From IMG/VR virus record IMGVR_UViG_3300035698_019443, positions 32,001-96,000 of that record: a DNA stretch of 64,000 nucleotides, one strand, 5' to 3'. Below, piece after piece: positions 1 through 7,548 of this stretch (its first letter is position 1; every line of letters starts with the position of its first letter). The notes under the pieces were generated by a model. That model had not been told where the DNA came from and ran no database searches. It worked only from the letters and a program-made list of their open reading frames with translations. Origin of the DNA: a virus. The position numbers and the translations under genes are program-made.

Positions 1-137
1 TTTGGGATCGGCACAGAGTTCGAGTGCCACCTCGACTCGCTCGACGAGAGGTCCGAGCCTCACGGGTTGGACGCCGCCGCGTCCTTTCATCTGCACGAGG
101 TCAGTTGGCAGGAGCCCGAGGCGTGGTGGGGGATCGC

Positions 138-332
138 ATGACTGACCTCACGCCATACGAGAAGAAGGACGTGGTCATGGTCCTCGGCGCGATTCGTGAG
201 CTGGCGACGCGCAGCGTGGACCACGGCGTCGCGGTCGCCGGGGAGCTCCCCGGCCTCGTCCACGCTTTTCGCCGCGTGCTCGACGCCGCGGCGGATCTAT
301 TGCAGGCGGAAGCCCAACGGAGAGCGAAATGA
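138..332 (+). CDS. small hypothetical protein
   Basis: ATG at 138 within ORF 24..332; its stop overlaps the next ATG (ATGA). Confidence 0.5.
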   Translation: MTDLTPYEKKDVVMVLGAIRELATRSVDHGVAVAGELPGLVHAFRRVLDAAADLLQAEAQRRAK

Positions 333-1336
333 CCGTGATCTACGCCCCCGACGGGATCTACAATCCCGCGTTTCGTGACCTGTCCAACATGAACTTCTGG
401 CAGGACGAGGACGTGCTCGCCTGCGTGGGGCGCATCACCAAGTTCTTCAAGCAGGGGAGTATCGAGACGGTGTACACACTGCTCTCGGTCGACCACGCGG
501 TCATCGTCGTTGCAGCGATGGGGGCACAGTGTCGGGTCGTCCTCTACCCCTCGCCAACTATCGAGTGGAACAAACAGTACCGCGCGGTACGGCAGCTCGT
601 GCGCGGCGTGCTTCGCCGCGTCCAGGCGAAGGAGCCGTCGGCGTTCATCGTCGAGAGCGTCGAGGCTCTACGTCGACAAGCCTACGAGGCGGGGTGCGAG
701 CGACTCATTATGTCCAACAGCTGGATGGCGCGCCAGGGGCACAGTATCGCGTCTGTCTCGCCCTCCGCCCAGTGGTGGGGCGATGACGTACTCACCCCCG
801 AAGAGCTCGAGAAGCGAGACGCGAGGGTCCGCCGACAACAGGAGCGCGCCGAGCAACAGCGAACGAAGCAGCGAGCCGCGGCAGCAAGGAGGCGAAAGGC
901 GAAGGCAAAGGAGGCAGCAGAGCTCGTGGCAATAGAAGCCGAGCGAAAGGCCGCGGCGGCGAGACGAAAGGCGAAGCCGAGACCGAAGCCCGCGCCACGC
1001 CAGGTCTATCGTCCCCCAGAGCCCTATTGCCGAGCTAACCACCCGTTCGGCGACACGAAGGGGGCTGCGCTAGCTGCGGAGAGGACAGACGAGAAGGTGC
1101 TCGCTCTCATCAATCGAGTGGACGAGCATCGGACCCCATTCACGCCGTGGGTCGGCGGACGAGGGGGGCAACTTCATGGCACGCCAGAGCAGCGGCAGAG
1201 GTTGGCCCAGGCGTGCGAGAAGCTCGATCGACACCCCATCGGGAGTACAGAGTTTGCGCTTTGGCCCAAGCTAGAAGAGCCGCAGTACGCGGACGATTAC
1301 ATCAACAGCCTCGGGAACGACGGCTACTACTGGTAA
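329..1336 (+). CDS. hypothetical protein with central charged (K/R/A/E) helical segment
   Basis: 335-aa ORF, coupled to upstream ORF, ends 16 nt before the RAMP gene; no family recognised. Confidence 0.7.
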   Translation: MTVIYAPDGIYNPAFRDLSNMNFWQDEDVLACVGRITKFFKQGSIETVYTLLSVDHAVIVVAAMGAQCRVVLYPSPTIEWNKQYRAVRQLVRGVLRRVQAKEPSAFIVESVEALRRQAYEAGCERLIMSNSWMARQGHSIASVSPSAQWWGDDVLTPEELEKRDARVRRQQERAEQQRTKQRAAAARRRKAKAKEAAELVAIEAERKAAAARRKAKPRPKPAPRQVYRPPEPYCRANHPFGDTKGAALAAERTDEKVLALINRVDEHRTPFTPWVGGRGGQLHGTPEQRQRLAQACEKLDRHPIGSTEFALWPKLEEPQYADDYINSLGNDGYYW

Positions 1337-1352
1337 CGAAGGAGAGAGAACG

Positions 1353-2219
1353 ATGACGAAAGAGAAGACGATGGTCGAGAAGAAGATCAAAGAGACCGCA
1401 GCGATGGCAGCTACTCGACGGCTCGAACGATCCCGCGGCGTGCTCGTGCATCCCGCAGACCTGCTCGGCGCGACCTACGACGAGGCCGACAAGCTCTACG
1501 CGATCTACGAGGTTGGGATCAAGTTCCGCGATCGTTGCCTCGGCGGACGACCGAAGCTCATCGACGTCGCGATGGCGGCGCTCGAGGCGAAGGCACGAGC
1601 GGGCAAGATGCCAGAGGACGTCCTAGAACGAGCGAAGGCCGACATGCGCGAAGCCTACACCGACGCCGAGAAGGCGCGAGAGAACGGCGACGTCAGCGAC
1701 GAGGCCTACGAGCTCGACGGGGCGAAGGACTCGATGAGCCAGGCGTGGAACGGTTTCTACTACGACGGCGTCGGGATCTATCTCGAGCAGCGCGTCATCA
1801 AAGCCTGCCTGAAGTCCTGCTTCACGCAGCTCGGCATCTTCAAGACGAAGAAGGTCGGACCTGGGGGGACTGTCGGGGCGAAGCAGACGCACAATACAGG
1901 GTTCTTCGTCTGCCCTGGCCGGGTCTACTTCGAGCGCGACGGCGAGATCCTCAAACGCCCCGATGGCTACGAGGACATGCCAGCTCACGTCACCGACCAA
2001 AAGACAGGAGCCCCTCGATCGATCCTCTCGCGCATCGACTACGTCACCGAGGCGGAGATGACCTTCATCGCCAAGCCGCTCATCGGGGGCGCCATCGACG
2101 AGCATGACCTCCTCCGTGCCCTCGCCCTCTCCCGCGACGTGGGGCTCGGCGCGAAGCGGTCGCAGTCCTTCGGTCAGTTCGAGCTCACAAAGGTCCAGCG
2201 TCTCGGCATCGGACGCTAG
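1353..2219 (+). CDS. stand-alone Cas7/Csm3-like RAMP-superfamily protein
   Basis: N-terminal strand plus glycine motif YEVGIKF..CLGGRP; GIYLEQRVIKACLKS sits where Cas7-group RAMPs have P(Y)IPGSSLKG.LR; C-terminal G-rich loop GLGAKRSQSFGQF followed by a final strand; GGAGAG RBS upstream. Confidence 0.8.
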   Translation: MTKEKTMVEKKIKETAAMAATRRLERSRGVLVHPADLLGATYDEADKLYAIYEVGIKFRDRCLGGRPKLIDVAMAALEAKARAGKMPEDVLERAKADMREAYTDAEKARENGDVSDEAYELDGAKDSMSQAWNGFYYDGVGIYLEQRVIKACLKSCFTQLGIFKTKKVGPGGTVGAKQTHNTGFFVCPGRVYFERDGEILKRPDGYEDMPAHVTDQKTGAPRSILSRIDYVTEAEMTFIAKPLIGGAIDEHDLLRALALSRDVGLGAKRSQSFGQFELTKVQRLGIGR

Positions 2220-2285
2220 ACGACCAACACGAACACGTAGGAAACGCGCGGATAACGACATGACAACGGTCAAACAACAAACCAC

Positions 2286-3140
2286 CGACCGACTTGACAT
2301 CACTTCGCCAGCCTACGCTTTCCAGCAGGCCGGACTACACCCCACCCTCCTTTCCTCGACGACTCGCCAGAGCGCTCTCCACCAAGCTGCGCCAAGCCTC
2401 GCTGCGCGACTACCTATTCCGACCTACTCTTCGCCCTACTATGCCAAGCCCTCCTCGCGACTTGCCAGACTAATCCGGGCTTCACTAGCCTCACCCGACA
2501 ACAGGCCAAACTCCTCTTTTCTCGCCTGCCTGCCGACTTGCTATTCTTCGCCTCACCGGCTCGTCCTGCCGACCTGCCATATCGCCCCCTTCACGCCTTT
2601 CGGCGAGCTCTTGCACACTGCTCTTTGCCGAACTATCGACAGACACACAAACCAAACCGTCCTGTCGACCAGCCGAGCCGTGCCCGGCTGTGCTCCCCTC
2701 CCGACTGGCTACACCCCTCTTCGCCTGCCTGGCCTTTACGACAAACACGACCGCACTACACTCTTCTGCGCTCTCGACTTGCCTCGCTCTTCTCTGCCTC
2801 GCTGCGCCGCCCCTCTCGACGGACCAAGCCGCGCCCCCCTTCGTCGACCTCGCGACAGGCCCGGCTACGCTACGCGCACCTTGGCTCCCGACTCACCAGG
2901 CCGCGCGGCGCTTTGCTACGCTGCCCCTACCCAGCCACGGTCTGCGCTCCACGGCTCTCGTCCGCGCTCCCGACTATCTTGTCTACCCCGCCCCCTACTA
3001 CAACGACGACAATCCAACCCCTCCACGCCCCGCCTCGACGACCTCGCAACTTGCCCGCTCCAGCCGAGCTCCGCTGTGCTCGACGACTGCACATACCCGT
3101 CTATGTCCACCTCTCGACGCACTGCTCTCTTCTGCGCTCT
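2286..3140 (+). ncRNA. putative guide-RNA array: CGAC-delimited ~36-nt units with internal (NN-NCY) 5-nt periodicity; transcribed strand inferred, not shown
   Basis: CGAC at 2420, 2458, 2496, 2534, 2570, (CGGC 2601), 2637, 2666, 2702, 2739, 2775, 2817, 2853, 2889, 2971, 3007, 3039, 3081, 3115. Example 2666: cgac ca gcc ga gcc gt gcc cg gct gt gct cc cct cc. Strong C-rich, G-poor skew; directly downstream of the RAMP gene. Confidence 0.75.
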
Positions 3141-3231
3141 GCGGTAATCCTTGATCCCCGCTCCCAGTCGTGTACGATCACGGCTGGGAGCGGAAGCCCC
3201 CACGAGGCGGAAGCCTGAAGGGAACGAGACG

Positions 3232-4227
3232 ATGGGGAAACGAAAGAACAAGAATCGGCGAAGAGGCAAGAGGCCAGAGAACGCGCAGACGAAAGATGCT
3301 GTGTCCGCGTCAGTTCGGGGCTATTTGCAAGCGGTAGAGTCGCATACAGTCGAGCCCATAGAGCAGATCTACCTTCTAGAGAAAAAGGCAACAAACGCGC
3401 TAACCGCTAGACTAACGAGCCACAAAGAAAGCGAGGCGAAAGAGCTAGCGGATGACGCAGACTTTCATCTGCGGACGGAGAGATCGTGGCCGTTCCCTTC
3501 GTTCATTATCTGTCTTGACGATCGGTTTATTACACGGAGGAGGAGCGTTGCTGCGTTTCTCCCTCCAAACGCCGAGCCGCGAGACAAGATCACCTGTTTG
3601 GGGTTTGTCTTCCAACCGGACCGCGTGTCCGCGCTGTTTCGAGTCGGCGCGGAGCCGCGTTTAGTTCCTATACGATCTAAGCAGGCGTGGCACAAATGGC
3701 CACGTAGTGGGTGGTTCTTCTACGCCTTAACTGCGACGGCTGCACTTCGTCGCGTGTGCTCGCGTCAAGTGCTTCCCCTATTCAGCCTAGCCGGCGTACG
3801 CTCCACCTCCGCGCATAACGTCGAGGCGAGAGAGGCGCTGCGTCCTCTACCCCTCCTGTACTACGAGACCAAGGAGCCCACCGGGTATAGCGTAAACGCC
3901 CCGCCCAACCTCGAGACGAAGGGGACACGAGCTCCGCTGCGGTACAGCTACATGCGGCGGAGCTCTGAGTCGGTCAAGGTGCGGCGAGGAGCTCTACCGA
4001 TCTCTGCCGTGGATCAGGCGGTGCTCGCCGATCTCGTCAAGCGGGGGTATCGAGTCTACGCCGAGCCCACGCGAACGATCCGCGAAGAGGACGCAGCGCG
4101 GCTCGAGCTCCGAGGGAAGCGGCTCAAGCACCAAGACGAGTGGCTCGCGATACTGGCGTGGTCCCGCAGAGCCACGCAGGTCAGGCCAGACCTCGAGCTC
4201 ATTCCATCAGTACGGAGGGTTGGATGA
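3232..4227 (+). CDS. hypothetical protein with basic N-terminus
   Basis: ATG at 3232 (MGKRKNK) in ORF 3151..4227; stop overlaps the next ATG. Confidence 0.65.
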   Translation: MGKRKNKNRRRGKRPENAQTKDAVSASVRGYLQAVESHTVEPIEQIYLLEKKATNALTARLTSHKESEAKELADDADFHLRTERSWPFPSFIICLDDRFITRRRSVAAFLPPNAEPRDKITCLGFVFQPDRVSALFRVGAEPRLVPIRSKQAWHKWPRSGWFFYALTATAALRRVCSRQVLPLFSLAGVRSTSAHNVEAREALRPLPLLYYETKEPTGYSVNAPPNLETKGTRAPLRYSYMRRSSESVKVRRGALPISAVDQAVLADLVKRGYRVYAEPTRTIREEDAARLELRGKRLKHQDEWLAILAWSRRATQVRPDLELIPSVRRVG

Positions 4228-4457
4228 GCCGCTGGCGACGAACCAAGAGACACCCCGAGGGGCTGTGCGACTGCGGGGCTCACTTTGTCCTGGGGGGCGA
4301 GCTCAGCAAACAGCCCACCGTGAAATGCCCTGGGTGTGACGCCGACCACGGGCTCGTGCTCGTCAAAGACGGAAGCAAGCTCGTTTCGCGGATACCTTCG
4401 AGGAAGAACCGACGGAAACAGCGACGGATACCCGCACCACGACCGCATAATACCTAA
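4224..4457 (+). CDS. small Zn-ribbon-like protein
   Basis: CDC...CPGC motifs; ATGA overlap with the upstream gene. Confidence 0.55.
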   Translation: MSRWRRTKRHPEGLCDCGAHFVLGGELSKQPTVKCPGCDADHGLVLVKDGSKLVSRIPSRKNRRKQRRIPAPRPHNT

Positions 4458-4485
4458 GAAACTCAATGATATCAAGTAGTTAGGT
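4452..4485. promoter_or_regulatory. AT-rich imperfect palindrome upstream of the serine recombinase (candidate binding or crossover site)
   Basis: ACCTAA-gaaactcaat-GATATC-aagtag-TTAGGT in an otherwise GC-rich background. Confidence 0.4.
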
Positions 4486-4546
4486 CTCTTTTCGTAGACA
4501 CAGAGGACCACCATAGGGTAGTGTACGGTAGGGCAGGAGGTCCAAC

Positions 4547-5272
4547 GTGGTACGAAAACAGACGCAAACCAGGGACGACCAGCGCGCGATCGGCTACGCG
4601 CGGGTGTCTACCGTCCAGCAAGCACAAGAGGGATACTCACTCGACGCGCAGCGCGAGAAGATCGCGACCTACTGCTCGATGCGAGACCTCGAGCTCGTCG
4701 ATGTCTTCAGCGACGAGGGGGTCAGCGCCTCGATCCCCTTCGCTCATCGTCCTGGCGGGACTCTCGCAGCCGAGACGTTGTCCTCTCACGGCGCGGGACA
4801 CCTCGTCGGGCTGAAGATCGATCGGTTCTTCCGCAACACCGTAGACTGCCTCTCGAGCATCTCTGTGTGGGATGACAGCGGCGTGGCGCTCCACCTCGTC
4901 GACATGGGGGGCCAAGCCATCGACACTTCCACGGCGATGGGGCGGTTCTTCCTGACAATGATGGCGGGCATGGCCGAGTGGGAGCGCAACGTCATCAGCG
5001 AGCGGACGATCATGGCGCTGCAGCAGAAGAAGGCCAAGGGAGACGACCTCGGGGCGGCAGCCTTCGGCCAGCGCTGGAACACGACGACGCACAAGCTCGA
5101 AGAGAACCTCGAGGAGGTCTTCGTGATCAGACGCATTCGAACGCTGCGGCGCAGCGGTCTGAGCTACGCGAAGATCGCGAAGCTACTGAACGACAACGGG
5201 GTGCCGGCACGACACGGCAAGTGGCACGTCAATACCATCGTTCGAATACTGAAGCGCCCGAGGGGTAAATGA
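4547..5272 (+). CDS. serine recombinase (resolvase/invertase family) with C-terminal DNA-binding domain
   Basis: IGYARVST catalytic Ser motif, SLDAQ, DEGVSA, KIDRFFR, AEWER..ISERT; C-terminal GLSYAKIAKLLN..G.P..GKW; GGAGG RBS. Confidence 0.93.
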   Translation: MVRKQTQTRDDQRAIGYARVSTVQQAQEGYSLDAQREKIATYCSMRDLELVDVFSDEGVSASIPFAHRPGGTLAAETLSSHGAGHLVGLKIDRFFRNTVDCLSSISVWDDSGVALHLVDMGGQAIDTSTAMGRFFLTMMAGMAEWERNVISERTIMALQQKKAKGDDLGAAAFGQRWNTTTHKLEENLEEVFVIRRIRTLRRSGLSYAKIAKLLNDNGVPARHGKWHVNTIVRILKRPRGK

Positions 5273-5301
5273 GACCACGCCGTGGCCGAGGAGAGTGGGG
5301 G

Positions 5302-5619
5302 CTACTGAATGAGACGCTGGGTGGGCGCGGGGTCTTCGTAGATCTCGACGATGACGCCGACGTCCTCTGCGTTGAAGTAGCAGGCCTTGGCCGGTTCCGG
5401 CGGAAGAGGTGCGGGCCGAGGCTGTTCCGCTTGCGCGACGAACCAGAGCTCCTCGATCTCGGGGTTCTTTCCAAGCATCCCCTCGAAGTGGACCGGCCCG
5501 TCAGTGGCGCGGCCATCTGACCCCGACGCGAACCCCAGTGCCACGGCGGGCTTGATGTAGACGACTACGGGCTGTCCGTCGAGCTTCTCCATCAGTGCCT
5601 CTACGGTCTCTTTCCTCAT
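5302..5619 (-). CDS. hypothetical protein
   Basis: 105-aa ORF with AGGAGG RBS, coupled to the upstream gene. Confidence 0.6.
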   Translation of the reverse strand: MRKETVEALMEKLDGQPVVVYIKPAVALGFASGSDGRATDGPVHFEGMLGKNPEIEELWFVAQAEQPRPAPLPPEPAKACYFNAEDVGVIVEIYEDPAPTQRLIQ

Positions 5620-6200
5620 GCGATCCTCCTGTTGGGCGGTATCCCAAAGATGTTCCCCTCGATGTTCACCAACGAACCGGGGAAGTCGAATGCCGCGAAG
5701 TCTACCATCTCGGGCACGGGGTTCTCAAGAGTCCCGGCCCAGAAGTCGTCGACGACGCTTCTCGTCGTCTGCGGGATAGAGGACCAACCGAGCGTTCGGA
5801 TGCGAGCTCGGCGGGCCTGTTGTGCTGCCGTCCCCCGGTTCTCCCAGATCGGGTTGACCGGCTGTGAGTAGGCTCGAATGATGCCGGTGAAGGTCGACAT
5901 GCGTGGGGGGCTCGACCCGACGAGCATGAGGTTCTGCGCCATCGCCCAGGTGACCGCCGCCGCCGCCCGCCTGTTTGTCCCGCCAGACTCGCCTACAATC
6001 GCTCGAGCGAGCCAGAGCTTGTCAGCGTTCGTCAACGGGATTGGATCGCCCACAGGGCCATGCAGCGCCCCACCCTGAACATAGACACGCCCCCTCGTTG
6101 GTGTCGTGCCCATCTTGCCGATCGTCCCTCGGACCCGCGAGAGCCCAAACAGCCCTAGCCCTGTGAGGCCGGCGACGAGCGTCCACCAGTACCGCGTCAT
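5616..6200 (-). CDS. membrane-anchored SleB/Hydrolase_2-like cell-wall hydrolase
   Basis: N-terminal TM (YWWTLVAGLTGLGLFGL); LARAIVGESGG...AAAVTWAMAQN...YSQP resembles LAR.I..EA.GE..AVA.V..NR. Confidence 0.6.
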   Translation of the reverse strand: MTRYWWTLVAGLTGLGLFGLSRVRGTIGKMGTTPTRGRVYVQGGALHGPVGDPIPLTNADKLWLARAIVGESGGTNRRAAAAVTWAMAQNLMLVGSSPPRMSTFTGIIRAYSQPVNPIWENRGTAAQQARRARIRTLGWSSIPQTTRSVVDDFWAGTLENPVPEMVDFAAFDFPGSLVNIEGNIFGIPPNRRIA

Positions 6201-6586
6201 TCTTCCTCCGCCTCGGTTGTCGCTTCGTAGCTCTCGGCCCGCATCCAATCCAGTGCTTTTCGTTGTGCCCCTGGTCCGCGAAAGACCGGACCTACCATTG
6301 CACTCTCGTCGGCCAAGAATCGTTGGCTGCGCCAGGAGTCCGCGTCGTAGTCAAAGCGGTAGAGCTTGCCGACCGCTTCGCCCTCAAAGATGATCCAGTA
6401 GCCCTCATTGACCTCGCCTTCGCCCTCGTCCTCCTCGTCGTCCCAGTCGGGCTCGAGGGAGAGTTTCCCTACGAGGCGCTCGCCCCCGTAAGGGAGTATA
6501 GTCGAACTGTCGCTTCGCTTGGACGCGATCAACCACACAAGACCGCCGCCTGCGCCGAGCATCACTATGTCTCGTAGGGTTCCCAT
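6197..6586 (-). CDS. hypothetical protein with N-terminal TM
   Basis: IVMLGAGGGLVWLIA followed by an acidic linker. Confidence 0.6.
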   Translation of the reverse strand: MGTLRDIVMLGAGGGLVWLIASKRSDSSTILPYGGERLVGKLSLEPDWDDEEDEGEGEVNEGYWIIFEGEAVGKLYRFDYDADSWRSQRFLADESAMVGPVFRGPGAQRKALDWMRAESYEATTEAEEE

Positions 6587-6588
6587 GG

Positions 6589-6807
6589 CTATCGCCCCAA
6601 GTTCAGGGGGCGGTCTTCGATGCCCGTCAGGGTCTTGTAGATCGGGATGCCGAACATGAGCAGGAGGAAGAAGACGGAGGCGCCCGCGAAGGCGACGCCG
6701 CCGATCGACCCGAGGTCGCCGAGTGACCCGAGAGAGTCACGGCGCTGATAGGGGTTGCTCCGTCGAATGCGGTAGCGGTTGCGATCGCTGACTCTATTGT
6801 CGTACAT
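6589..6807 (-). CDS. small membrane protein with LGSLGDLGSIGG motif
   Basis: 72 aa: basic N-terminus, Gly motif, TM; AAGGAG RBS. Confidence 0.65.
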   Translation of the reverse strand: MYDNRVSDRNRYRIRRSNPYQRRDSLGSLGDLGSIGGVAFAGASVFFLLLMFGIPIYKTLTGIEDRPLNLGR

Positions 6808-6819
6808 GGTTCCTCTCCT

Positions 6820-7098
6820 TTATGCTACGCAGGATCGGATGGTTCGAGCTCCATCTTTGTACCCGCTGGCGTACATCTCTTGCATATGCTTGTCGTGACT
6901 ACGAGCCATCATCTCCGCAGTGTTCGATGACGTTGTGCTCAACAGCACGACTTCTTCGGGGAAAGAGAGCCCTTCGAGCCTGTCGGGGCTGTTGGGGTCC
7001 GCTCGACGTACCCCGTCGTAGAACCCTTCGGTATACGCCGCGTGTGCGTAGGGTCGAATGAGGTCGAAGATATCGTCGAGGGCTACTTCCATGGGCAT
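6820..7098 (-). CDS. hypothetical protein
   Basis: 92-aa ORF with AGGAG RBS. Confidence 0.55.
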   Translation of the reverse strand: MPMEVALDDIFDLIRPYAHAAYTEGFYDGVRRADPNSPDRLEGLSFPEEVVLLSTTSSNTAEMMARSHDKHMQEMYASGYKDGARTIRSCVA

Positions 7099-7116
7099 CG
7101 CAGACTCCTATCGAAT

Positions 7117-7548
7117 TTAGTCAGGGGCACGGACTCTACCGCGCTGCCTAACGATGAGCCCCTCTCCGGCTAGTTGCGTGAGGACCGCCGTCAGAGGAAC
7201 CAACTTGTTTTTGTGCTGGGCGAACTCCTCGTCGATCTTGTCCATCTCGTCGTTGTCCGCGATCCAGGCGAGAACGAAGCGCCGAGCTTTCTCCCAAGCG
7301 GCGGGCTCGCGGTCCTCGTAGATCTTCTCGGTGGACCAGTCCCAAACACCCTGCCAGAAGGCCCGGTCCCAGACGGGCATCGAGGTCTCACGGCGGTTGA
7401 ACGCGCCGCCCGCCCAGAGCTTTCGATCTGCGGACAACTGTAGCCGATCCGGGGAGCTCGACGCCGCTGACGCCCAGTCCCGCCCCTTCTCGTACCGCTT
7501 CTGGTTCTTCGTGGATCTCATCGAATGGGGCCAAAGGCGTCGACCCAT
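7117..7548 (-). CDS. hypothetical protein, possible C-terminal winged helix
   Basis: 143 aa ending LTQLAGEGLIVRQRGRV. Confidence 0.5.
   Translation of the reverse strand: MGRRLWPHSMRSTKNQKRYEKGRDWASAASSSPDRLQLSADRKLWAGGAFNRRETSMPVWDRAFWQGVWDWSTEKIYEDREPAAWEKARRFVLAWIADNDEMDKIDEEFAQHKNKLVPLTAVLTQLAGEGLIVRQRGRVRAPD

What the first reader, a model, noticed from the sequence alone, without database searches (positions are those of the whole stretch)
2420..3118. Array grammar CGAC-(NN-NCY)6-NN: information held in interspersed dinucleotides
Seen: several units parse exactly to 36 nt. 2534: cgac tt gct at tct tc gcc tc acc gg ctc gt cct gc. 2666: cgac ca gcc ga gcc gt gcc cg gct gt gct cc cct cc. 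2739: cgac aa aca cg acc gc act ac act ct tct gc gct ct. 2817: cgac gg acc aa gcc gc gcc cc cct tc gtc ga cct cg. 2853: cgac ag gcc cg gct ac gct ac gcg ca cct tg gct cc. 2971: cgac ta tct tg tct ac ccc gc ccc ct act ac aac ga. The triplets are mostly constrained (GCC/GCT/ACC/ACT/TCT/CCT) while the seven dinucleotides differ in every unit; there are roughly 20 or more units, some of 29-42 nt. Inference: the triplets are a protein-binding scaffold and the NN pairs spell a 14-nt address read non-contiguously. If one target base is skipped per pair, the code could ignore codon wobble positions and resist synonymous escape.
Basis: partly seen in the sequence, partly recalled or inferred. Interest (0 to 1): 0.92.

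Follow-up and report, generated by a model that had tools for sequence, protein, structure and literature searches.

The report
Phage VIPR guide-RNA array
The five-base rhythm is real and is the guide-RNA array of a VIPR system, a CRISPR-like, phage-borne RNA-guided DNA silencer first described in 2026 preprints, so this is a new example of a known kind and not a new code.

Summary
Window 2286-3147 is a non-coding, C-rich, G-poor tract. It is the only place in this 104-kb phage genome with strong lag-5 and lag-36 autocorrelation (z 5-6 against dinucleotide shuffles). About 21 units start with CGAC and continue as pentamers nn-N-C-Y. With a per-unit phase, 78% of pentamers fit, against 29% expected.

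This is therefore a VIPR locus (bioRxiv 10.64898/2026.04.26.720920). In that system the fixed triplets are held by a Vipr filament, and the NN pairs read dsDNA while skipping every third base. No targets were found above controls.

Differences from the SUSP1 reference system:
- the fixed motif is degenerate (NCY, complement RGN);
- the guides are short and back-to-back, with no structured tail;
- the C-rich strand is the vipr-sense strand.

This scan has already reported VIPR loci on other DNA, in at least 346 genomes.

The parts
1353..2219 (+). vipr gene: 288-aa stand-alone Cas7-like RAMP (Vipr homologue). G-rich loop GLGAKRSQSFGQF at residues 264-276.
2220..2285 (.). Transition between the vipr stop codon and the periodic array. 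A/C-rich, with CGAC motifs but no regular pentamers.
   Evidence: Sequence, unit listing. No significant fold on either strand.
2286..3147 (.). vrRNA array: about 21 back-to-back units of 27-47 nt (mode 36-38). Each unit is CGAC followed by 5-8 pentamers nn-N-C-Y on the + strand, which reads (R-G-N-nn)n-GTCG on the - strand.
   Evidence: Runs of four or more NNNCY pentamers span 2300-3138 (475 of the 839 bases lie in such runs).
3158..3195 (+). 15-bp hairpin directly after the array. It is fully paired on the + strand (with one U.G pair) and has a C/A mismatch on the - strand. Likely transcript end or stabiliser of the sense transcript.
   Evidence: strand folding, (z -4.0 on +, -3.2 on -). 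Analogous hairpins follow the C-rich strand in L002, L003 and Mae-JY09.
329..1336 (+). 335-aa ORF immediately upstream in the same operon (16-nt gap to vipr). It is a candidate accessory (vap) gene by position only, with a lysine/arginine-rich helical middle.
   Evidence: ORF list. No Pfam or PHROG family. Not conserved next to vipr in related loci. Only weak ESM Atlas leads, scores below 0.9.
24..332 (+). Small ORF (102 aa) overlapping the start of the 335-aa ORF. Possibly the first gene of the operon. Membership unproven.

Best explanation
This is a VIPR (Viral Interference Programmable Repeat) locus of an uncultured 104-kb phage. It consists of a Vipr protein gene (1353-2219) and, directly after it, an array of about 21 short guide-RNA (vrRNA) units (2286-3147).

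Shown here:
- The protein is a Cas7-like RAMP homologous to the characterised SUSP1 Vipr.
- The tract is built of pentamers with two fixed and three free positions, punctuated by CGAC.
- The same gene-plus-tract pair recurs in distant relatives.
- Arrays of two near-identical phages differ by whole units.

Inferred from the published type II system:
- The array is transcribed and cut into units.
- One Vipr protomer binds each pentamer and sequesters the fixed bases. These are C-Y on the + strand and R-G on the complement.
- The filament presents the variable dinucleotides, which pair with double-stranded DNA while every third target base is skipped.
- The bound complex silences genes of competing mobile elements or of the host.

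Each 36-nt unit would then read about 20 bp through 14 specified bases.

Which strand is the RNA is open. I lean about 60:40 to the C-rich strand co-transcribed with vipr. That would make the fixed motif NCY rather than the canonical GGY.
For: Periodicity and grammar.

Protein:
- AF2 pLDDT 91.9.
- The family profile matches the SUSP1-type Vipr profile at hhalign 95.5%, E 1.3e-8.
- The SUSP1 195-aa ORF beside YNNGG tracts carries C173, D177, W178, R179, E71, M72 and R138 at the residue numbers given in the structure preprint (preprint read).

Conserved association: a C-rich, pentamer-periodic tract with an xGAC anchor lies beside the gene in L002, L003, L005, L006, L007, L009, L010, L015, L019 and Mae-JY09. 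Unit lengths step by 5 in L007 (23/28/33/38).

Modular evolution: L009 and L010 are 97-99% identical in their flanks, but their arrays share only 4 identical units.

Context: there is no CRISPR repeat, no tRNA and no Rfam family here. The host record is viral with direct terminal repeats.

Published mechanism.
Against: - The fixed motif is not the canonical GGY. On the - strand it is R-G-N and on the + strand N-C-Y.
- There is no room for the structured 3' tail of type II vrRNAs.
- Guides are short: 5-8 pentamers, against 9-16 in type II.
- In SUSP1 the GGY strand is the vipr-sense strand. Here the complementary C-rich strand is vipr-sense in 9 of the 10 fetched loci with pentamer runs and also in Mae-JY09; the one exception is L003.
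- Six of the SUSP1 base-contact residues map here, and five are replaced: E71->R147, M72->V148, R138->D229, D177->A267, W178->K268. Only R179->R269 is kept. H17 was not mapped.
- No expression data could be obtained.
Confidence: 0.9

Rival explanations
1. It is the same VIPR system, but the guides are the G-rich strand, 5'-(R-G-N-nn)n-GTCG-3', transcribed antisense to vipr. The motif is then a degenerate form of canonical GGY/NN, and GTCG is a minimal 3' tail or processing site.
For: - All experimentally confirmed vrRNAs are G-type, and the published variants (NNNGG, YNNNG, NNNNG) all keep G2.
- The best-conserved base here is the + strand C, which is a - strand G.
- In L007 the - strand reads GG followed by a pyrimidine in 71% of pentamers (C 49%), which is close to canonical.
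- An anchor at the 3' end would mirror the repeat-then-tail order of type II.
Against: - It requires convergent transcription into vipr for downstream arrays. For upstream arrays it requires a promoter inside the vipr RBS or coding start, because the array ends about 20 nt before the RBS in L009 and L010.
- Orientation relative to vipr is kept whether the array lies upstream or downstream. Co-transcription explains that more simply.
- The window hairpin at 3158-3195 pairs fully only on the + strand.
- L002 has a hairpin with a U-rich tail on the sense strand.
- The residues that read G1 and G2 in SUSP1 Vipr are not conserved here.
Confidence: 0.36
2. The tract is a C-rich, G-poor 3' untranslated region that acts as a Rho-loading (rut) site or another unstructured RNA or DNA element with no guide function. 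The pentamer pattern would be a by-product.
For: GC skew of -0.4 over 900 nt. C>G bubbles and YC dinucleotides are hallmarks of rut sites (established knowledge).
Against: - A rut site needs neither a strict 5-nt phase, nor CGAC punctuation, nor unit lengths stepping by 5.
- The tract co-occurs with a Vipr homologue in unrelated phages, both upstream and downstream of the gene.
- Arrays turn over by whole units.
Confidence: 0.03
3. It is a TIGR-Tas or CRISPR-type array, both of which are other RNA-guided systems. TIGR units are also 36 nt long.
For: The modal unit is 36 nt, as for tigRNAs. The neighbouring protein is a Cas7-like RAMP.
Against: - There are no edge or loop repeats with the UG...CCA boxes.
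- No Nop-domain protein was detected; Pfam finds nothing in the neighbours.
- There is no direct repeat of CRISPR length.
- No other cas genes were found.
- The period-5 substructure is absent from both of those systems.
Confidence: 0.02
4. It is a decaying or orphaned VIPR array. The degenerate motif (C 85%, Y 93%, third fixed base lost) and the irregular unit lengths would mean the guides no longer work.
For: The fixed motif is weaker than in relatives such as L009 and L002, where CC is 77-94%. 22% of pentamers are off-pattern. No targets were found.
Against: - The vipr gene is intact and well modelled.
- The periodicity remains highly significant along the whole 860 nt.
- All NN strings are distinct and not drifting copies of each other.
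- The target searches were badly underpowered.
Confidence: 0.07

Closest known systems
VIPR type II system of Escherichia phage SUSP1 (Vipr + vap1 + GGY/NN vrRNAs; bioRxiv 10.64898/2026.04.26.720920, .720927, 10.64898/2026.10.15.759431)
   Same: - Phage-borne.
- A lone small RAMP homologous by profile comparison.
- Adjacent non-coding tracts of tandem pentamers with fixed and hypervariable positions.
- No CRISPR repeats and no other cas genes.
- Guides lie directly upstream or downstream of the gene.
   Different: - SUSP1 has four separate vrRNAs of about 100 nt, with 9-16 YNNGG repeats and a structured pseudoknot tail. Here about 21 abutting units of 5-8 pentamers are separated only by CGAC.
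- The motif here is NCY/RGN and not GGY.
- Vipr is 288 aa against 195 aa, with an N-terminal helix (residues 2-30) and a helical insert (about 70-130).
- Five of the six mapped base-contact residues differ.
- The G-rich strand is antisense to vipr here and sense in SUSP1.
Non-canonical VIPR arrays: 'staggered' back-to-back vrRNA arrays and NNNGG / YNNNG / NNNNG or other fixed-trinucleotide repeats (10.64898/2026.04.26.720920, fig. S17-S18 legends and methods; 10.64898/2026.10.21.760802, section 2.3)
   Same: - Units abut with no spacer or tail.
- The fixed motif is degenerate with one dominant position.
- A Vipr-like fold is encoded next to a period-5 tract.
   Different: The figures are not held, so I could not check whether the CGAC/GTCG delimiter, the unit sizes or the strand arrangement seen here are those described. 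I could not determine which of the seven types this is.
Type III CRISPR Cas7 backbone (Csm3/Cmr4) on crRNA
   Different: - The period is 6 nt in CRISPR, where lag 6 is disfavoured here.
- crRNA spacers have no fixed internal bases.
- There are no repeats, no Cas10/Cas5/Cas6 partners and no adaptation genes.
TIGR-Tas arrays (PMC12045711)
   Same: Phage-associated arrays with sparse conservation, 36-nt units and split guide information.
   Different: TIGR uses a Nop-domain protein, edge and loop repeats with box C/D, and two contiguous 8-9-nt spacers. None of these is present here.
TRAP (trp RNA-binding attenuation protein) binding sites
   Same: The grammar of a recognised triplet plus a 2-nt spacer repeated many times, read by an oligomer with one subunit per repeat (established knowledge).
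   Different: In TRAP sites the spacers carry no information and the protein is a ring of an unrelated fold. This is an analogy only.

Membership tests
VIPR | Sequence homology to an experimentally characterised Vipr | tested here: met
   Profile-profile hhalign of A2 (93 sequences) against A4 (34 SUSP1-type sequences): probability 95.5%, E 1.3e-8, 137 columns. Window residues 128-284 align to SUSP1 residues 50-193. The single-sequence comparison is weak, and an HMM search of the SUSP1 genome found nothing.
VIPR | Tandem pentanucleotide repeats with fixed and hypervariable positions in the intergenic DNA flanking vipr (at least 4 units) | tested here: met
   Lag-5 z 5.1-5.9. 102 of 130 pentamers fit nnNCY. 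Entropy is 0.85 and 1.36 bits at the fixed positions against 1.9-2.0 bits at the variable ones.
VIPR | Canonical GGY fixed trinucleotide | tested here: not met
   The - strand reads R-G-N: G 85%, the preceding R 93%, and the third base free. The preprints accept related consensuses (NNNGG, YNNNG, NNNNG, others), so this excludes the canonical subtype and not the family.
VIPR | Minimal non-CRISPR locus in a virus: no CRISPR array, no further cas genes | tested here: met
   The record is a 104-kb virus with terminal repeats. No CRISPR-like tandem repeat. Neighbours have no Pfam or PHROG Cas hits. No Rfam family.
VIPR | Accessory vap gene next to vipr | tested here: inconclusive
   The 335-aa ORF 329-1336 lies in the same operon but has no family hit and is not conserved beside vipr in related loci.
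VIPR | vrRNAs are expressed, processed and bound by Vipr | not testable with these tools
VIPR | NN dinucleotides match natural targets under the 1-nt skip rule | tested here: inconclusive
   In the phage's own genome and in related loci, the best NN match is the same for real and shuffled guides at skips of 0-3. Two 9-NN guides gave 1 hit each in IMG/VR, and the reordered controls gave 2 and 0. Guides specifying 10-14 bases are too short for database-wide searches.
VIPR type II (SUSP1 clade) | 9-16 YNNGG repeats followed by a conserved structured 3' tail, on the vipr-sense strand | tested here: not met
   Units have 5-8 pentamers and abut through CGAC only. The G-rich strand is antisense to vipr.
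TIGR-Tas | [quoted passage not shown] | tested here: not met
   No Nop hit in the neighbours. The unit profile shows a single 4-nt anchor and a period-5 interior. Features read.
CRISPR-Cas (class 1) | Direct repeats of about 23-40 nt alternating with unique spacers; multi-subunit effector; 6-nt crRNA register | tested here: not met
   No such repeats. Lag 6 is negative. The RAMP stands alone.

The most novel reading that the evidence does not exclude
In this Vipr clade the guide is the C-rich strand, co-transcribed with vipr. It would have a 5' CGAC handle followed by 5-8 pentamers whose fixed bases are pyrimidines (C-Y or Y-C) in place of GGY, read by a remodelled pocket (E71->R, R138->D, D177->A, W178->K).

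All three free bases might also be read. TAA and TAG are almost absent among 649 sense-strand variable triplets (2 observed against 19 expected). This would be a second recognition code within VIPR, with very short multiplexed guides.
Probability: 0.3. Interest if true: 0.6.

Novelty: new member of a known kind. Interest (0 to 1): 0.3.

Why it matters
It adds a large array (about 21 guides) from an uncultured high-GC phage to the newly described VIPR family. The same clade is present in a cultured phage, Microcystis phage Mae-JY09, which could serve as an experimental handle.

The clade shows short back-to-back guides, a degenerate fixed motif, replaced base-contact residues, and an array strand opposite to that of the reference system. 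These features bear on how flexible the Vipr-RNA code is and on how guides are processed without a structured tail.

The non-contiguous NN code itself is already published and demonstrated, so the finding does not open a new question.

Tried and rejected
- Protein families: Pfam and PHROG scans of seven to nine neighbouring ORFs found nothing except a serine recombinase and weak kinase/HAD hits.
- RNA genes: Rfam and tRNA scans of the window found nothing.
- Phage DNA similarity: blastn of 1-8000 against the phage collection gave no match.
- First structure model: the AF2 model from a 2-sequence alignment was useless, pLDDT 44.6.
- Locus searches: the search for related loci with single proteins or the 2-sequence alignment found nothing in viral or metagenome contigs. 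The 93-sequence alignment was too diverse to search with.
- SUSP1 genome: an HMM search with the window family profile found nothing. Homology appeared only at profile-profile level.
- Promoters and terminators: the scan found nothing useful near the array.
- Targets:
  - No self-match or related-locus match above shuffled guides for skips of 0-3.
  - IMG/VR hits of two 18-base gapped guides (L029, L030) are at the rate of the reordered controls, and no other guide matches those contigs.
  - The contiguous 21-mer made from the variable triplets of unit 2775 has no exact match in IMG/VR or in the GTDB species genomes.
- Codon tests: a codon-usage likelihood does not favour reading the variable triplets as in-frame codons. 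NN pairs do fit a codon position 1-2 model somewhat better than the other frames.
- Candidate vap: the ESM Atlas gave only sub-threshold glycosyltransferase-like leads for the 335-aa neighbour.
- Rejected readings: Rho rut site, TIGR array, CRISPR array, DNA iterons, chance composition.

Full report
**1. The observation.**

Window 2220-3150 lies between two + strand genes and holds no credible ORF. It is 43% C and 19% G, with a GC skew near -0.4.

Against 300 dinucleotide-preserving shuffles, autocorrelation of 2420-3118 peaks at lag 36 (z 6.2) and lag 5 (z 5.1). Satellites fall at 26, 31 and 41, and lag 6 is disfavoured. The 99th percentile of the maximum z over lags 1-90 in the shuffles is 3.6.

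In a scan of the full 104,264-bp genome this tract ranks first for skew, for lag 5 and for lag 36.

CGAC occurs 28 times, against 12.5 +/- 3.5 expected. Fifteen successive spacings fall in 27-45 nt, against 2 expected.

Anchoring on CGAC shows C at +7, +12, +17, +22, +27 and +32, followed each time by a pyrimidine.

With one phase per unit, 102 of 130 pentamers fit nn-N-C-Y, against 29% expected. Entropies per pentamer position are 1.99, 1.94, 1.89, 0.85 and 1.36 bits. All 20 NN strings differ.

The grammar is therefore real. Only C and Y are fixed. The array spans about 2286-3147. Several units (those of 38 nt and a few others) use a shifted phase.

**2. The neighbouring protein.**

ORF 1353-2219 (288 aa) has no Pfam or PHROG family. 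A word-based search found a single relative. An exhaustive HMMER search found 393 representative clusters.

Family members give only weak HMM hits to Csm4, Cas6 and Csm3 through the glycine-rich loop. The protein is a stand-alone, divergent RAMP.

**3. Comparative evidence.**

Relatives of the protein (23-37% identity) were fetched from viral and metagenome contigs and from GenBank (Microcystis phage Mae-JY09).

In L002/L008, L003/L021, L005, L006, L007, L009, L010, L015, L019 and Mae-JY09, a C-rich, G-poor non-coding tract abuts the gene. It has the same build: an anchor (CGAC, xGAC or CAGAC) followed by a variable number of pentamers NNN-(C/Y)(C/Y).

In L007 the units are 23, 28, 33 and 38 nt, stepping by one pentamer.

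L009 and L010 are 97-99% identical in their flanks, but their arrays share only four identical units. They otherwise differ by gain or loss of whole units and by changes at the variable positions. This is what independently evolving guide modules would look like.

No neighbouring protein of the window is conserved in these loci.

**4. Identification.**

[quoted passage not shown] Three related preprints were also found: the structure (.720927), satellite competition (10.64898/2026.10.15.759431), and a language-model survey that recovers 99 period-5 VIPR-like clusters, 21 of them with non-canonical motifs (10.64898/2026.10.21.760802).

VIPR systems consist of a lone ancestral RAMP (Vipr), usually an accessory gene, and vrRNAs made of GGY/NN pentamers. 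Vipr protomers polymerise one per pentamer and lock the GGY. The NN pairs read dsDNA with one base skipped, usually the codon wobble. Binding silences genes of rival phages or satellites.

To test membership I located the SUSP1 locus by its YNNGG runs. These are at 27.8-29.2 kb on the minus strand, with genes of 195 aa and 146 aa between them.

The 195-aa ORF carries E71, M72, R138, C173, D177, W178 and R179 at exactly the residue numbers named in the structure preprint (preprint read). It is therefore Vipr.

A profile of 34 of its relatives matches the window family profile with hhalign probability 95.5%, E 1.3e-8, over 137 columns. The family-level features are met. The type II features are not (see Membership tests).

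**5. How this locus differs, and the strand problem.**

(a) *Motif.* It is N-C-Y on the + strand and R-G-N on the - strand. Relatives show Y-C or C-C (G-R or G-G on the complement). L007 reads GGC on the - strand.

(b) *Architecture.* About 21 abutting units of 5-8 pentamers, with no structured tail. This may correspond to the 'staggered arrays' mentioned in a figure legend I could not see.

(c) *Orientation.* In SUSP1 the GGY strand is the vipr-sense strand. In this clade the C-rich strand is vipr-sense in 9 of the 10 fetched loci with pentamer runs and also in Mae-JY09, whether the array sits upstream or downstream. Only L003 is inverted.
   - Upstream arrays end about 20 nt before the vipr RBS.
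   - The window hairpin at 3158-3195 is fully paired only on the + strand.
   - L002 has a sense-strand hairpin with a U-rich tail.

(d) *Base-contact residues.* SUSP1 contacts map to different residues here: E71->R147, M72->V148, R138->D229, D177->A267 and W178->K268. Only R179->R269 is kept.

Together these points make a C-type guide co-transcribed with vipr somewhat more likely than a canonical G-type guide transcribed antisense, at about 60:40. No expression data were obtainable.

**6. Targets.**

Guides specifying 10-14 bases cannot be placed in large databases.

- In the phage's own genome (array masked) and in the related loci, the best NN match equals that of shuffled guides for skips of 0-3. 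The preprint likewise reports no self-targeting, but this search had no power to show it.
- The two longest runs (9 NN, 18 specified bases), written with one skipped base, gave one IMG/VR hit each (L029, L030). Controls with the NN order reversed gave 2 and 0 hits. No other guide matches those contigs. These hits are chance.
- A contiguous 21-mer made from the three variable bases of unit 2775 has no exact match in IMG/VR or in the GTDB species genomes.

**7. An unexplained detail.**

I read the three variable bases on the vipr-sense strand over 649 well-formed pentamers from eight arrays.

- TAA occurs 0 times (7.5 expected) and TAG 2 times (11.7 expected). These are the two most depleted of all triplets.
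- TAT, TAC and TGA are not depleted.
- The window alone has 0 stop triplets against 4.2 expected.
- NN pairs fit a codon position 1-2 dinucleotide model better than the other frames, but a full codon-usage likelihood does not favour in-frame codons.

CTAG avoidance (a preceding C followed by TAG) could explain part of this. I treat it as a lead only.

**8. Verdict.**

The feature is a VIPR vrRNA array with its Vipr gene.

This is a new member of a known kind, with clade-specific features worth an experiment: the strand, the motif and the short guides. This scan has already reported VIPR loci in at least 346 other genomes.

Noticed in passing
L033:2974-4237 (Microcystis phage Mae-JY09, PP395641.1 37713-38976): A cultured cyanophage carries the same arrangement at the right end of its record. 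An unannotated Vipr homologue (27.6% identity, labelled 'hypothetical protein') is followed by a C-rich CGAC-punctuated pentamer tract of about 400 nt and a perfect hairpin. It could serve as an experimental model for this clade.
   Followed up: partly
L009:3290-3660 and L010:4350-4960: Two phage contigs are 97-99% identical in their flanks, but their arrays (12 and 20 CAGAC-delimited units) share only 4 identical units. Units start with a near-constant CAGAC-AAACC and hold only 2-4 variable pentamers, which is very little information per unit.
   Followed up: partly
window 2360-3147 and arrays of L002, L003, L005, L007, L010, L015, L033: Among the variable triplets read on the vipr-sense strand, TAA (0 of 7.5 expected) and TAG (2 of 11.7 expected) are the most depleted of all 64 triplets. 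TAT, TAC and TGA are not depleted. Unexplained.
   Followed up: partly
window 4547-5272 (+): A serine recombinase / large-serine-integrase-like gene (Resolvase domain E 1e-34; PHROG integrase E 1e-59) lies about 1.4 kb downstream of the array. This suggests a temperate or invertible element context.
   Followed up: no
window 7518-9404 (-): A 628-aa ORF with an N-terminal CxxxCxxC motif and a second cysteine cluster has no Pfam or PHROG family. Not examined here.
   Followed up: no
window 3232-4227 (+): A 331-aa ORF starts 37 nt after the hairpin with a very basic N-terminus (MGKRKNKNRRRGKRPE...). It has no family hit, and its relation to the VIPR locus is unknown.
   Followed up: no
L002:8600-9300: A second C-skewed stretch with a lag-5 signal lies about 2 kb downstream of the first array in this relative. 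It may be a second array.
   Followed up: no
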